From contig JBLFWS010000097.1 in the NCBI GenBank assembly GCA_047611865.1, forward strand, positions 1-12,951: a stretch of 12,951 nt of DNA, read 5' to 3'. Position 1 is the first letter of the stretch, and each line of letters opens with the position of its first letter. The translations under genes and the position numbers were made by a program. This stretch comes from Chlamydiales bacterium. Lineage in GTDB: Bacteria > Chlamydiota > Chlamydiia > Chlamydiales > JBDQID01. Below are positions 10,466 to 12,949 of this stretch, in pieces. The notes below the pieces were generated by a model. The model searched no databases. It was not told the DNA's origin and was given only the letters and a program-made list of their open reading frames with translations.

Positions 10466-12949
10466 TTACAAATACATACCAAAAGGAGGATCATTTTTTT
10501 CTGGCTCCAAGTGCTTAAGTGATTTCAAAAGATCTTTCATCGTCACTTGCCGATCTTTATCTGTAATAATCGCAGTTTCTGGATTTTCATCAGATAACTT
10601 CTCGAGCATTCTCCTTTGCACATAAGAAACTGCTTCCTTCACAGTACTTGCTATATCAGCACCAGAAAATCCCTTCGTTTTCTCTACCAGGACTTTAAAG
10701 TCTACCTTGGAATCCAAGAGATTGTCTTTTCGGAGTTGCTTTGTATGAATCTGAAAAATCTCTTCTCTTCCAATATCATCTGGAAGACTAATCTCAAGCT
10801 GGACTTCGAGACGACCAGGACGTAATACTGCCGGATCAAGAGAACTTCTTCTGTTCGAAATCCCAATGAAAAGGACGTTTTCCATTTCATTCAAGCCATC
10901 AATTTGACCAAGAAAAGCGTTAGTTGGCTTTGCTGCGTGGGGGTCGCCACTCTCATCCCTCTTTTTCAAGAATGAGTCCACTTCATCGACAATGATGAGG
11001 TGCATGGGTGCCTCACTGATTTCACCCCTCTTATACTGCGCCCATTCTTCTCGTGCTGGCTTGAAGAGATTACGCACATTTTTCGAAGATTCCCCTACCC
11101 ACTTGCTGTAAATTGAAGTTCCATCAATCATCGTAACCCTATCCTCTGTACAGCTCAGGATTTTCCCCAACTGTTTCGCAAGCAAGGTCTTCCCTGTTCC
11201 CGGGGGACCGTATAGTAAGATCCCTTTAGGAGCCTTAATACCAAACTGCTTGAAAACAGGGTTTGAGGAACGAGAAAGCAATATCCTCCTAACAATCTCC
11301 TGGAATTGATCAGAGACACCACCCACACCCATTTCGTCACGTAATCGGGCTACAATACCTTTTAATTCAACATCTTTAGGTATAGTAAAGATACGCAGCT
11401 TTTCTCTGTCTTCTGAAACAAATTGAACATTCGTTTCAAGTGACATAGCTCCCAATAAAGAATGTTTTGCTGCCGGAGTTCCATCCTTAAATTTCATTTC
11501 AGAAACGACAAGATGTAATGATCCTGAATCATCGAATCTTTGAACCAGAGTCTGCTCCATAAAGAGACGACTCTTATCCATACCCTGAAAGAACGCTTCC
11601 ACTTGTTCTTCTGAAAGAGAAATAGTCTCTCTTTCTTCTTCTTGAGGCATCATGAAAGCTGGCATCCCCGTATCTTCTGGAACGTACTTCACTTTAACTT
11701 TGACACTTTCAAGCTCGTGAGTCTCTGAACCATTACACAAGGTAAGACCATCACTTTTCATAACATTCAATGACAATGTTGTATTAGTTCCTGGTCTAAC
11801 AAAGGCTGACGGGATATCTGCTTGAGAAATCTCTCCGGTGCGAACTTTCGCGACCCTAAATAAAAACTTCCCTGTGGAAAGTTCTAATGGGAAACAGCCG
11901 TTTTGAATAAACCATTTATTCCCTTTAGACAATTCCTTAACAGCCTGAGAAAACTCCCCTACATCGATACGCATCTGTGGACTTTTCTCATGGTTTTTTT
12001 GGTATTGACGATCCTCAATAGTAAATTCTATTGAATCATCATCAGATAGTGCCAGGTACTGATTTCCCACTACAATATCGTCATCACAAAGCTGCTTATC
12101 TACTCTAATACCCTTAATGCAATCTGCTGAGGGTGTAAAACATAGTTTATAGGGAGAAAACCGTTGCTTTTCTTTTAAGCTAACTTCATTTTCGGCTTCA
12201 AGGTATCCAGCATCCCTCACCGTAGCGCGAATAAAACCATAACGTCCAATTTCTACTACAGTGTCTGAACCAAGAGACAAATCCTGCTCTGAAAACTTAC
12301 TTATTAAAAGATCCTCTAATTCATCATGAGCAACCTGAAAAGGCAATGGAGGTAAGCCCTCACGCCAATCTGATTTACTTGGTTTTGAAACTCCTCCTCC
12401 ACTGAGGCGCACAGCTCCCTGGCCACCCAACATCATCATCAAGCCTCCCAAATCCATGCCCTCATCTTCACTGTCAGAATCATTCTCTATAGCACTTGAT
12501 ACATGTTCTCTGCCTAGAGAAAACTTCTTTTGGAACTTATCCGTTATAAATGAGAGCTCAACAAGAAGTTGCGTAGAAGCTATATTAATATGCTCTACTA
12601 ATTGTATACCGGGGTGATCCAAATTCACCTTAAAATCTAGCTGTGTTTGGCTTGTGATAACCCCTGTAGAATTTCTTACCCTTCTGCGCTTGGCAGCACG
12701 AGGTCCCATACTTGAACTATGCTCTGAATCTACAGTAAGAACAATCGGTTTTGACCCAGGAAGTTCCAGATACATGGACTGATTTGTCTCTAAGGGCTGC
12801 TTGGAAAAAAGCTCTTGTACCTTGGCTCGTAATACATTTACATCGATAGAGGTTAAACCCTTCCCTTGACCGTACTGAGAACGAAAGGGTTTTACAGAAA
12901 AGGTCACTCTTGAAAAAGGCTTGCAGGGTATGTCATCAGCTAGACAAAA
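10466..12949 (-). CDS. NSF/Sec18-like AAA+ ATPase (single D1-type domain) with long repetitive N-region; 5' end probably outside the window
   Basis: Walker A GPPGTGKT (11186-11209), pore loop SKWVGES, Walker B [30 protein letters not shown]. The frame has no stop from 12907 to the window edge ([14 protein letters not shown] precedes the GTG). Confidence 0.9.
   Translation of the reverse strand, partial: [827 protein letters not shown]

What the first reader, a model, noticed from the sequence alone, without database searches (positions are those of the whole stretch)
10466..11335. Bacterial AAA+ domain that looks specifically like eukaryotic NSF/Sec18 D1: candidate SNARE-manipulating effector
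Seen: [22 protein letters not shown]...[24 protein letters not shown]...[10 protein letters not shown]...[15 protein letters not shown]...[58 protein letters not shown]. Known: from memory, NSF D1 reads [21 protein letters not shown]...RQIGKML...LHIIIFDEIDA...KIDGVEQLNNILVIG...[28 protein letters not shown]...[22 protein letters not shown]. The F..I.RR...SR, H.II.DE and GRLEV signatures fit NSF better than FtsH, Cdc48 or PAN. NSF disassembles SNARE complexes, which bacteria do not use. There is no D2 ring. Inference: a host-derived gene in an intracellular bacterium that may be secreted to remodel host vesicle traffic.
Basis: partly seen in the sequence, partly recalled or inferred. Interest (0 to 1): 0.8.

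Follow-up and report, generated by a model that had tools for sequence, protein, structure and literature searches.

The report
Chlamydia-type NSF-like ATPase, already described
This gene of an intracellular, chlamydia-like bacterium really is a close cousin of the eukaryotic vesicle-fusion ATPase NSF, but the family was described in 2022, and it lacks the residue NSF needs to grip its SNARE adaptor while carrying a tail like those that dock onto proteasomes.

Summary
Window 10466-11335 (- strand) encodes one intact AAA+ domain, followed directly by a stop codon. It is specifically NSF-D1-like: it has the best single-domain scores, sits in an ML clade with NSF D1 (support 100/99), and shares a 9-11-residue insert between Walker A and Walker B.

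The ORF (10466-12949) runs off the contig. Its first ~140 codons lie on contig C242, which overlaps the window end by an exact 127 nt.

Upstream of D1 is an NSF-type N domain (hhalign 99.3% to NSF-N, 16% to archaeal Cdc48-N) followed by three further N_B-like repeats.

The family is already in print. Khalifeh et al. 2022 (PMC9546365) described 'Type 2' NSF-like proteins in megaviruses and Chlamydiae. This gene is therefore a new member of a known kind.

The SNARE-remodelling reading is weakened. The position of NSF R67, which contacts alpha-SNAP, is Arg in 21 of 22 NSF rows and in 0 of 16 family rows. There is also no NSF-type D2.

One feature I did not find in print is a C-terminal hydrophobic-Tyr-X (HbYX-like) tail. 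It occurs in 76 of 125 family representatives and 0 of 22 NSFs, in genomes where no proteasome or HslV gene was found (6 searched).

The function is untested. A host-directed unfoldase is my best guess.

The parts
10466..12949 (-). ORF of the type-2 NSF-like ATPase. 827 codons lie in the window and it is 5'-open at the contig end. About 140 more N-terminal codons, including the N_A subdomain, lie on contig C242 of the same assembly.
   Evidence: The C242 tail and the reverse complement of the window end overlap by an exact 127 nt, and that 127-mer occurs nowhere else in the genome. Homologues of 948-951 aa align over the full length.
12578..12934 (-). N_B1 (residues ~6-124): an alpha/beta-roll subdomain equivalent to NSF N_B.
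   Evidence: hhalign against the NSF N_B profile gives 97.9%, E 4.7e-13 over 102 columns. AF2 strand-helix pattern.
12674..12691 (-). Basic cluster K-R-R-R-V-R (residues 87-92) in a low-confidence loop of N_B1. It looks like a nuclear localisation signal. This is a lead only.
   Evidence: Sequence. pLDDT is below 50 for residues 80-92. Similar basic clusters sit near the N-termini of other members. Not tested.
12389..12538 (-). Acidic/Gly-rich linker (residues 138-187), predicted to be disordered.
   Evidence: pLDDT is below 50 for residues 138-187.
12050..12382 (-). N_B2 (residues ~190-300): second N_B-like repeat.
   Evidence: hhalign vs NSF N_B 88.7% (E 2.5e-6); vs N_B1 95.6%.
11750..12043 (-). 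N_B3 (residues ~303-400): third N_B-like repeat and the most divergent.
   Evidence: hhalign vs N_B1 96.2%; vs NSF N_B only 66% (E 5.6e-5).
11375..11749 (-). N_B4 (residues ~401-525): fourth N_B-like repeat, abutting the linker into D1.
   Evidence: hhalign vs NSF N_B 96.8% (E 2.5e-10); vs N_B1 97.5%. PDB phmmer aligns the query from residue 505 to NSF residue 183 onward.
10550..11335 (-). D1 AAA+ domain (residues 539-800).
   Evidence: Pfam AAA plus lid. Family-profile envelope 539-800. NSF D1 clade with support 100/99.
11186..11209 (-). Walker A, GPPGTGKT (residues 581-588).
   Evidence: The GxxGxGK[T/S] pattern is kept in all 16 family rows: 14 read GPPGTGKT, G020 ends in S and G076 has Q at the second position.
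11087..11107 (-). Pore loop 1, S-K-W-V-G-E-S (residues 615-621): an aromatic-hydrophobic-Gly motif at the position of NSF Y294.
   Evidence: W, Y or F in 16 of 16 family rows. The role of Y294 in NSF is described in passages of PMC6160233. The positional equivalence is by alignment and inferred.
10976..10996 (-). Walker B, IIVDEVD (residues 652-658). It is preceded by the NSF-type insert.
   Evidence: Walker A to Walker B spacing is 60 in 22 of 22 NSF D1 domains, a median of 62 (range 54-66) in 16 family D1 domains, and a median of 51 in the Cdc48 D1/D2, CIP111 d1, PEX1 D2 and FtsH rows measured.
10805..10825 (-). Arg-finger motif L-R-P-G-R-L-E (residues 709-715).
   Evidence: both Arg residues are present in 16 of 16 family rows.
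10469..10549 (-). C-terminal tail (residues 801-827) ending in M-Y-L, an HbYX-like motif at 10469-10477. The stop codon is at 10466-10468.
   Evidence: Hydrophobic-Tyr-X occurs in 76 of 125 family representatives with a complete last AAA domain, against Tyr at -2 in 0 of 16 metagenome NSFs and 0 of 6 viral NSFs.

Best explanation
The gene is a member of the 'Type 2' NSF-like AAA+ family that Chlamydiae share with giant viruses.

Shown here:
- The architecture is an NSF-type N domain (N_A on the neighbouring contig, N_B1 in the window), three further N_B-like repeats, one NSF-D1-type ATPase domain and a ~27-residue tail ending in hydrophobic-Tyr-X.
- The Walker A, Walker B, sensor-1, Arg-finger and aromatic pore-loop motifs are all intact.

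Inferred:
- The protein forms a ring.
- It uses the array of N/N_B modules to pick a substrate or adaptor.
- It threads that substrate through the D1 pore by ATP hydrolysis.
- The conserved C-terminal tail docks the exit face of the ring onto a partner.

The R67 position of NSF-N is not kept, and no NSF-type D2 is present. The protein is therefore probably not a plain alpha-SNAP-dependent SNARE disassembler.

I think it most likely (about one chance in two) that it is exported and acts on host proteins. The target is unknown.
For: D1 affinity:
- Per-domain scores favour NSF.
- A careful ML tree of 80 AAA domains over 255 columns places NSF D1 (22), family D1 (16), family second domains (4), viral long-N proteins (2) and 5 other metagenome rows in one clade, with support 100/99 and a stem of 0.66.
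- Within that clade the family (99/86) is sister to the NSF group (100/91).
- The insert between Walker A and Walker B is shared.

N domain:
- The family's N_A+N_B1 profile matches NSF-N at 99.3%, E 7e-21 over 178 columns. It matches archaeal Cdc48-N at 16%.
- For the AF2 model of the paralogue's N domain (pLDDT 79), VIA gives Z 15.5 to Sec18-N and Z 15.1 to NSF-N, against 10.9 for Cdc48A-N and PEX1-N.
- In Foldseek, all rows listed above rank 28 are Sec18 or NSF.

Whole window protein:
- AF2 pLDDT is 77.6.
- In Foldseek, all 19 rows listed above rank 30 are NSF or Sec18 (24-28% identity over ~515-555 columns). p97 appears first at rank 30, at 20% identity.

Other points:
- Catalytic motifs are intact.
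- The tail motif is conserved.
- Host-directed lead 1: the genome has 7 TLC transporters and FHIPEP.
- Host-directed lead 2: the family was found only in Chlamydiales-type genomes of 1.7-3.6 Mb (25 of 400) and in giant-virus contigs.
- Host-directed lead 3: there are three paralogues in this genome.
- Host-directed lead 4: PF00227 (20S/HslV) was not found in this genome or in 5 other carriers.
- The published description matches (PMC9546365).
Against: - Secretion, oligomer state, ATPase activity and substrate are all untested.
- No secretion-signal predictor was available.
- Without D2, which is NSF's oligomerisation ring (my recalled knowledge), hexamer formation is only an assumption.
- Gene composition equals the genome's, so nothing marks it as a recent import.
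- The organism has no name from any tool. 'Chlamydiae' is inferred.
- All NSF reference rows were fished with one DNA motif and carry no organism names. Only two were checked against PDB NSF.
- Rpt/PAN, katanin/Vps4-type, named eukaryotic Cdc48 and NVL domains are not in the tree.
- The R67 call rests on a profile merge of divergent N domains.
Confidence: 0.5

Rival explanations
1. One reading: a functional NSF mimic. Once secreted, it binds host alpha-SNAP through its N domain and disassembles host SNARE complexes to redirect vesicle traffic.
For: The N domain has the NSF/Sec18 fold and profile. D1 lies in the NSF clade with an aromatic pore loop. Giant viruses that carry type-2 genes also carry SNAREs and canonical NSF (PMC9546365, abstract and section 2.3).
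Against: The R67 position is Arg in 21 of 22 NSF rows but in 0 of 16 family rows. The window gene's own N-terminus on C242 has Met there, followed by Gly at the K68 position. R10, R67, K68 and K104 are named as the alpha-SNAP contacts in review PMC11532144 (passages). There is no NSF-type D2. Three extra N_B repeats change the geometry above the ring. The 2022 authors themselves call SNARE binding unclear.
Confidence: 0.12
2. A housekeeping or stress unfoldase that stays inside the bacterium. It would be comparable to bacterial Cdc48-like ATPases and would act on bacterial proteins, for instance during the developmental cycle.
For: No signal peptide or secretion evidence was obtained. Composition is native. 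AAA+ unfoldases with Cdc48-type N domains exist in bacteria; MSMEG_0858 appears at Z 7.2, and Cpa is described in the search listing for PMC6017811. Neighbouring genes are ordinary metabolism.
Against: Distribution is patchy (25 of 400 genomes, none of 29 in the 1.0-1.2 Mb family f35), which argues against a core function. The nearest relatives are eukaryotic NSF and giant-virus genes. The HbYX-like tail has no 20S/HslV partner gene in the 6 genomes searched.
Confidence: 0.3
3. The contig is not bacterial. It would be a eukaryotic or giant-virus fragment mis-binned into the assembly.
For: The closest protein-language neighbour is a cluster that is 91% Nucleocytoviricota. The contig is short (12.9 kb).
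Against: The same contig carries bacterial-type genes without introns: GH57, a GT4/GT5 glycogen-synthase-like gene, GDE, a POT transporter, a 4HBT thioesterase, tRNA-Met and a group II intron remnant. Its GC equals the genome's. Homologues lie inside contigs of 186 kb to 3.3 Mb in other genomes of the order, for example in G073 (2 contigs) and G095 (6 contigs).
Confidence: 0.02

Closest known systems
'Type 2' NSF-like proteins of megaviruses and Chlamydiae (Khalifeh, Neveu & Fasshauer, Traffic 2022; PMC9546365)
   Same: A divergent NSF-like protein with only a D1 domain. Homology to the viral proteins extends into the N-terminal region. It occurs in Chlamydiae, and some members carry a second D domain. 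All of these match what I see.
   Different: Nothing contradicts membership. I could not compare directly with the accessions named in the paper (Waddlia, Estrella, Criblamydia). In the text I read, the paper has no hit for 'HbYX' or 'proteasome', its two hits for 'repeat' are the word 'repeatedly', and it says nothing about the R67 position. Its figures are not held.
Canonical NSF / Sec18 (N-D1-D2)
   Same: The N domain has the same two-subdomain fold and is collinear in profile. D1 is in the same clade with the same Walker A to Walker B insert, intact catalytic motifs and an aromatic pore loop.
   Different: There is no NSF-type D2. Where a second AAA domain exists, it branches inside the family's own D1 clade (99/94), so it is an internal duplication. 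There are three extra N_B-like repeats. The R67 position is not Arg. The family has an HbYX-like C-terminus that 22 of 22 sampled NSFs lack.
Archaeal Cdc48/VAT and other HbYX-bearing proteasomal ATPases
   Same: A ring ATPase with a Cdc48-superfold N domain and a C-terminal hydrophobic-Tyr-X. 6 of the 13 archaeal Cdc48-type proteins printed end the same way (for example M-Y-A, M-Y-V). The HbYX definition comes from the abstracts of PMC11142061 and PMC8907193.
   Different: This protein has a single AAA domain. Its D1 does not group with Cdc48 D1 or D2. Its N profile matches Cdc48-N at only 16%. No 20S or HslV gene was found in the 6 carrier genomes searched.

Membership tests
Type 2 NSF-like (PMC9546365) | NSF-like D1 as the only AAA domain, or D1 plus one further D domain | tested here: met
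   One PF00004 domain followed by a stop codon. Relatives of ~1200 aa have two.
Type 2 NSF-like (PMC9546365) | Monophyly with the viral D1-only proteins, with homology extending into the N-terminal region | tested here: met
   Viral long-N proteins L031 and L033 fall inside the family clade (99/86). The N_B4 HMM hits L031 at i-E 4.4e-8. The nearest Atlas cluster is 91% Nucleocytoviricota (a lead only).
Type 2 NSF-like (PMC9546365) | Direct similarity to the published accessions (Waddlia, Estrella, Criblamydia) | not tested
   No tool gave me those records.
Canonical NSF/Sec18 | N domain of NSF type (double-psi barrel N_A plus alpha/beta roll N_B) | tested here: met
   hhalign 99.3%. VIA Z 15.5 and 15.1 on the paralogue's model. 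For the window gene itself, N_A lies on contig C242.
Canonical NSF/Sec18 | D1 groups with NSF D1 | tested here: met
   Clade support 100/99, as sister to the NSF group rather than nested within it. Shared insert.
Canonical NSF/Sec18 | Second, NSF-type D2 ring | tested here: not met
   A stop codon follows 27 residues after D1. The second domains of long relatives are D1 duplicates.
Canonical NSF/Sec18 | Basic alpha-SNAP contact R67 (with R10, K68, K104) | tested here: not met
   Arg in 0 of 16 family rows against 21 of 22 NSF rows. The K68 position is basic in 5 of 16 against 12 of 22. Residue numbering was recalled and checked against the PDB alignment.
Canonical NSF/Sec18 | SNAP-dependent SNARE disassembly | not testable with these tools
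   Needs biochemistry.
Cdc48/p97/VAT | Tandem D1-D2, with domains grouping with Cdc48 D1 or D2 | tested here: not met
   Single AAA domain. Cdc48 D1 (100/99) and the Cdc48 D2 group (94/96) are separate clades.
HbYX proteasome activators | C-terminal hydrophobic-Tyr-X | tested here: met
   M-Y-L at residues 825-827. 76 of 125 family representatives.
HbYX proteasome activators | Cognate 20S or HslV peptidase in the same genome | tested here: not met
   PF00227 gave no match in G000 (95.5% complete) or in 5 other carriers (97-99% complete). The controls matched in 10 of 14 genomes.
HbYX proteasome activators | Binding to and gate opening of a 20S particle | not testable with these tools
   Needs peptide or protein assays with a purified 20S.
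FtsH | Transmembrane N-terminus and M41 peptidase domain | tested here: not met
   No PF01434 or PF06480. The genome's own FtsH-like gene is on C38, and FtsH is the outgroup.

The most novel reading that the evidence does not exclude
The chlamydial type-2 NSF-like ATPases are exported unfoldases. Their conserved hydrophobic-Tyr-X C-termini would dock the exit face of the D1 ring onto the HOST 20S proteasome, or onto another host receptor for such tails such as a PUB/PUL-type p97 adaptor. This would build a hybrid machine with a pathogen cap on a host core. It would feed host proteins, chosen by the N/N_B array, into degradation without ubiquitin.

The evidence does not exclude this:
- The tail is strongly conserved (76 of 125 representatives).
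- It is absent from the 22 NSFs sampled and from the 2 viral type-2 proteins sampled.
- The carrier genomes searched have no proteasome or HslV gene.
- One member ends in L-S-Y-Y-T, the last five residues of the optimised human-20S activator peptide given in the abstract of PMC8907193.
Probability: 0.15. Interest if true: 0.85.

Novelty: new member of a known kind. Interest (0 to 1): 0.4.

Why it matters
As a finding it is mostly a confirmation. Eukaryote-type NSF-like ATPases circulate among Chlamydiae and giant viruses that share protist hosts, and this has been in print since 2022.

- The 'conserved N-terminal region' resolves into an NSF N domain plus three extra N_B modules.
- The alpha-SNAP contact R67 is lost, so SNARE disassembly should not be assumed.
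- Nearly all members (109 of 125) carry an aromatic C-terminal tail of the kind that docks ATPases onto 20S proteasomes, in bacteria that have none.

If the tail engages host machinery, this would be a new way for an intracellular bacterium to redirect host proteolysis.

Tried and rejected
- All three homologous-protein searches gave little. One search (words from the first 500 residues) found no N-terminal relatives. Searches were swamped by two-domain Cdc48 proteins and their fragments, whose scores are sums of two domains. Only P0023, P0024 and P0026 were useful.
- Pfam sees nothing in the 540-residue N region at E <= 1. The paralogue gives only a sub-threshold CDC48_2 hit (E 0.057).
- Both related-loci scans of genome contigs found no relative: with the family alignment and with the GDE neighbour, the latter tried in order to get an organism name. 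No tool named the organism.
- Complex prediction, using the C-terminal 83 residues against two copies of the Thermoplasma 20S alpha subunit, returned 'no answer'. The score was 0.34, but a control with chain 1 replaced scored 0.55. This is neither support nor evidence against.
- The one supplement held for PMC9546365 has no hit for Waddlia, NSF or Chlamydiae.
- I considered and dropped a recent-transfer argument from composition, because gene and genome GC are both 0.415.
- I did not run an AU test of nested versus sister placement, a rooted analysis or any expression look-up.
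Full report
OBSERVATION. On the - strand, window 10466-12949 is one open frame of 827 codons that runs off the contig end. The window is a whole 12,951-bp contig.

Every quoted peptide is there. Pfam finds one AAA domain (residues 577-721, E 3e-30) and one AAA lid (residues 749-789), and nothing else. So a single AAA+ domain with no second ring is a fact of the sequence.

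GENE EXTENT. Homologues of 948-951 aa (P0023, P0024, P0026; 58-65% identical in D1) align over the full length. They show that about 144 N-terminal residues are missing from the window.

The missing part lies on contig C242 of the same assembly. Its + strand tail overlaps the reverse complement of the window end by exactly 127 nt, and that 127-mer occurs nowhere else in the genome. The C242 part was analysed as a separate row.

IS D1 SPECIFICALLY NSF-LIKE? Yes.
- In the PDB sequence search, Cdc48, p97 and VAT rank first only because two domains are summed (VAT: 139.9 + 121.2 bits). NSF and Sec18 score 203-205 bits in a single stretch (query 505-813).
- Against a profile of the family's D1, NSF-type D1 domains score 262-307 bits. 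The best Cdc48 D1 or D2 scores 238, CIP111 about 166-177, PEX1 D2 160 and FtsH 146-164.
- I obtained NSF reference sequences by scanning viral and metagenome contigs for a DNA motif back-translated from family members. Two of the resulting ORFs were checked. L039 matches mammalian NSF at 665 bits over D1-D2. The N domain of L104 matches NSF-N at 237 bits.
- A careful IQ-TREE run (LG+C20+F+G4 PMSF; 80 domains over 255 columns) gives one clade with support 100/99 and a stem of 0.66. It contains NSF D1 (22 rows), family D1 (16), the family's second domains (4), two viral long-N proteins and five other metagenome rows. Cdc48 D1 (with CIP111 d1), Cdc48 D2 (with PEX1 D2 and CIP111 d2), a plant FHA-AAA protein and FtsH are all excluded.
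- Within that clade the family plus the viral L031 and L033 (99/86) is sister to the NSF group (100/91). It is not nested in it.
- A rare-change character agrees. The distance from Walker A to Walker B is 60 in 22 of 22 NSF D1 domains, 62 in the two viral type-2 proteins and a median of 62 (range 54-66) in 16 family D1 domains. The median is 51 in the Cdc48 D1, Cdc48 D2, CIP111 d1, PEX1 D2, FtsH and plant FHA-AAA rows measured.
- I ran Foldseek on the AF2 model of the window protein (pLDDT 77.6). All 19 rows listed above rank 30 are NSF or Sec18 chains, at 24-28% identity. p97 appears first at rank 30, at 20%.

THE N-TERMINAL REGION. Pfam is blind to it, but profile comparison is not.
- The family's N_A+N_B1 profile matches a profile of 22 NSF N domains at 99.3% (E 7e-21, 178 columns). 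The same profile matches archaeal Cdc48-N at 16%, while NSF-N against Cdc48-N gives 94.7%.
- The cross-controls (N_A against N_B) give 1.2% and 0.4%.
- Three further segments of the window protein are N_B-like: residues ~190-300, ~303-400 and ~401-525. Against NSF N_B they score 88.7%, 66% and 96.8%. Against N_B1 they score 95.6%, 96.2% and 97.5%.
- The AF2 model shows the same strand-helix-strand pattern four times.
- An AF2 model of the paralogue's N_A+N_B1 (C16 residues 55-300, pLDDT 79) aligns to Sec18-N at Z 15.5 (3.0 A, 159 residues) and to NSF-N at Z 15.1 (3.1 A, 169 residues). It aligns to Cdc48A-N and PEX1-N at 10.9 and to VAT-N at 7.5.
- Foldseek agrees, with Sec18-N TMt 0.71 and p97-N first at rank 28.

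The architecture is therefore N_A, N_B, three more N_B-like repeats, then D1 and a tail.

WHAT IT LACKS OR ADDS RELATIVE TO NSF.
- There is no D2. In the ~1200-aa relatives the second AAA domain branches within the family's own D1 clade (99/94). It is a duplicate, not an NSF D2.
- A review (PMC11532144, passages) names R10, R67, K68 and K104 of NSF-N as the alpha-SNAP contacts and lists R67A as reducing SNAP-SNARE binding.
- In a merged alignment the R67 column is Arg in 21 of 22 NSF rows and in 0 of 16 family rows (Lys once). The window gene's own N-terminus has Met-Gly at the R67-K68 positions. The residue numbering was recalled and checked.
- The ATPase motifs are intact. The GxxGxGK[T/S] Walker A pattern, the DE of Walker B, both Arg fingers and an aromatic pore-loop residue are each kept in 16 of 16 rows. 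The pore-loop Tyr of NSF is needed for disassembly (PMC6160233, passages).
- The tail ends in M-Y-L.
- I took the 150 best of the 262 representatives that match the N-region profile in a 1.84-billion-protein library (152 at E <= 1e-10). Of these, 125 have a complete last AAA domain.
- Those 125 end as follows: 76 in hydrophobic-Tyr-X, 2 in other-Tyr-X, 16 have Phe or Trp at -2, 15 have Tyr at -3 and 16 have none of these.
- None of 16 metagenome NSFs, 6 viral NSFs or 2 viral type-2 proteins has Tyr at -2. 6 of the 13 archaeal Cdc48-type proteins printed end in hydrophobic-Tyr-X.
- HbYX is the motif by which activators bind 20S proteasomes and open their gate (abstracts of PMC11142061 and PMC8907193).
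- PF00227 (20S/HslV) gave no match in this genome (95.5% complete) or in five other carriers (97-99% complete). Controls matched in 10 of 14 genomes.

ORGANISM AND DISTRIBUTION.
- No tool names the organism. The assembly is 3.59 Mb in 272 contigs. It has seven TLC nucleotide transporters and FHIPEP export-gate genes.
- Its order contains more than 400 genomes of 0.8-3.6 Mb. In the 41-genome relatives sample, most weak AAA-only matches lie in open frames of ~900-945 aa, which I read as FtsH.
- Together with the published host range of the family, I infer an environmental member of the Chlamydiae.
- The N-region profile is found in 25 of 400 genomes of the phylum sample (21 of 334 high-quality ones). 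All carriers are 1.7-3.6 Mb. None of 29 genomes in family f35 (1.0-1.2 Mb) carries it.
- A single-protein query had found 11 of 400.
- This genome has three paralogues.
- Gene GC (0.415) equals genome GC (0.415).

PRIOR WORK. Khalifeh, Neveu & Fasshauer (Traffic 2022, PMC9546365) describe two NSF-like types in megaviruses. I read the abstract, section 2.3 and passages of the discussion.
- It has putative homologues in Waddlia, Estrella, Criblamydia and two other Chlamydiae.
- Some of these have another D domain.
- Homology extends into the N-terminal portion.
- The authors call SNARE binding unclear.

That is this family. The text has no hit for 'HbYX' or 'proteasome', and its two hits for 'repeat' are the word 'repeatedly'. 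The only other library hit for 'NSF-like' plus 'Chlamydiae' is its own preprint. 'HbYX' plus 'Chlamydia' returns one unrelated paper. Figures are not held, so Figure 4 may show more than I could read.

MECHANISM. Shown: the domain architecture, the intact motifs, the NSF affinity, the loss of R67 and the conserved tail.

Inferred: a ring-forming, ATP-driven threading machine whose N/N_B array selects a substrate or adaptor and whose C-terminal tail docks onto a partner at the exit face.

I give about 0.5 to a host-directed role and 0.3 to a role inside the bacterium. Within the host-directed share, canonical SNAP/SNARE action gets about 0.12 and docking on host 20S (or another receptor for such tails) about 0.15.

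A complex prediction of the tail with an archaeal alpha subunit gave no verdict and counts for nothing either way.

LIMITS.
- The reference NSF rows are unnamed and were selected by a motif.
- Several AAA groups are missing from the tree.
- The root is unknown, so the direction of transfer is unknown.
- The N_A evidence for the window gene rests on the neighbouring contig and on a paralogue's model.
- No experiment or expression data were examined.

Noticed in passing
window 5300-8094: About 2.8 kb without a credible ORF. It holds a group II intron domain V/VI match (5766-5836, - strand, 49.9 bits against a gathering score of 40) with no intron-encoded protein. It also holds three inverted-repeat pairs (5608-5702/6393-6487, 7062-7126/7225-7289, 7501-7595/7682-7776). 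By eye only, frames at 6563-7048 (-) look like the C-terminal part of a lipid kinase, possibly a pseudogene.
   Followed up: partly
window 474-5018 (- strand): A glycogen-type gene row: GH57, then a GT4/GT5 glycogen-synthase-like gene, then an amylo-alpha-1,6-glucosidase (GDE_N + GDE_C). tRNA-Met follows at 5219-5293 (+).
   Followed up: no
G000 contigs C16:3787-6639 and C162:~4905-7514: Two further paralogues of the same family in this genome (951 and ~898 aa). They are 45% and 35% identical to homologue P0023 over the aligned parts, and both end in M-Y-L or M-Y-I.
   Followed up: partly
L008, L159-L162 (G037, G095, G076, G046): Members of ~1190-1220 aa carry a second AAA domain. In the tree it branches inside the family's own D1 clade (99/94), so it is an internal duplication and not an NSF D2.
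   Followed up: yes
N-termini of family members (L003, L007, L008, L023, L024, L161) and window 12674-12691: Short basic clusters of the K-K/R-x-K/R type lie in disordered N-terminal stretches or loops, resembling classical nuclear localisation signals. They could equally be chance in Lys-rich proteins.
   Followed up: no
L007 (G001): This member ends in L-S-Y-Y-T, identical to the last five residues of the optimised human-20S-activating peptide quoted in the abstract of PMC8907193.
   Followed up: no
L030-L039 (IMG/VR contigs): Giant-virus MAG contigs encode canonical N-D1-D2 NSF homologues (L030, L034, L035, L037, L038, L039) and long-N single-D1 proteins (L031, L033). The two viral type-2 proteins sampled lack the HbYX-like tail.
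   Followed up: partly
G073:C1:2666003-2666965: The family copy in this 2-contig genome has an in-frame TGA and an open frame of only 417 aa. It may be a pseudogene.
   Followed up: no
G000 genome: There are seven TLC-type nucleotide transporter genes (412-613 bits for six of them, 324 for the seventh) and three FHIPEP matches. PF00227 gave no match.
   Followed up: partly
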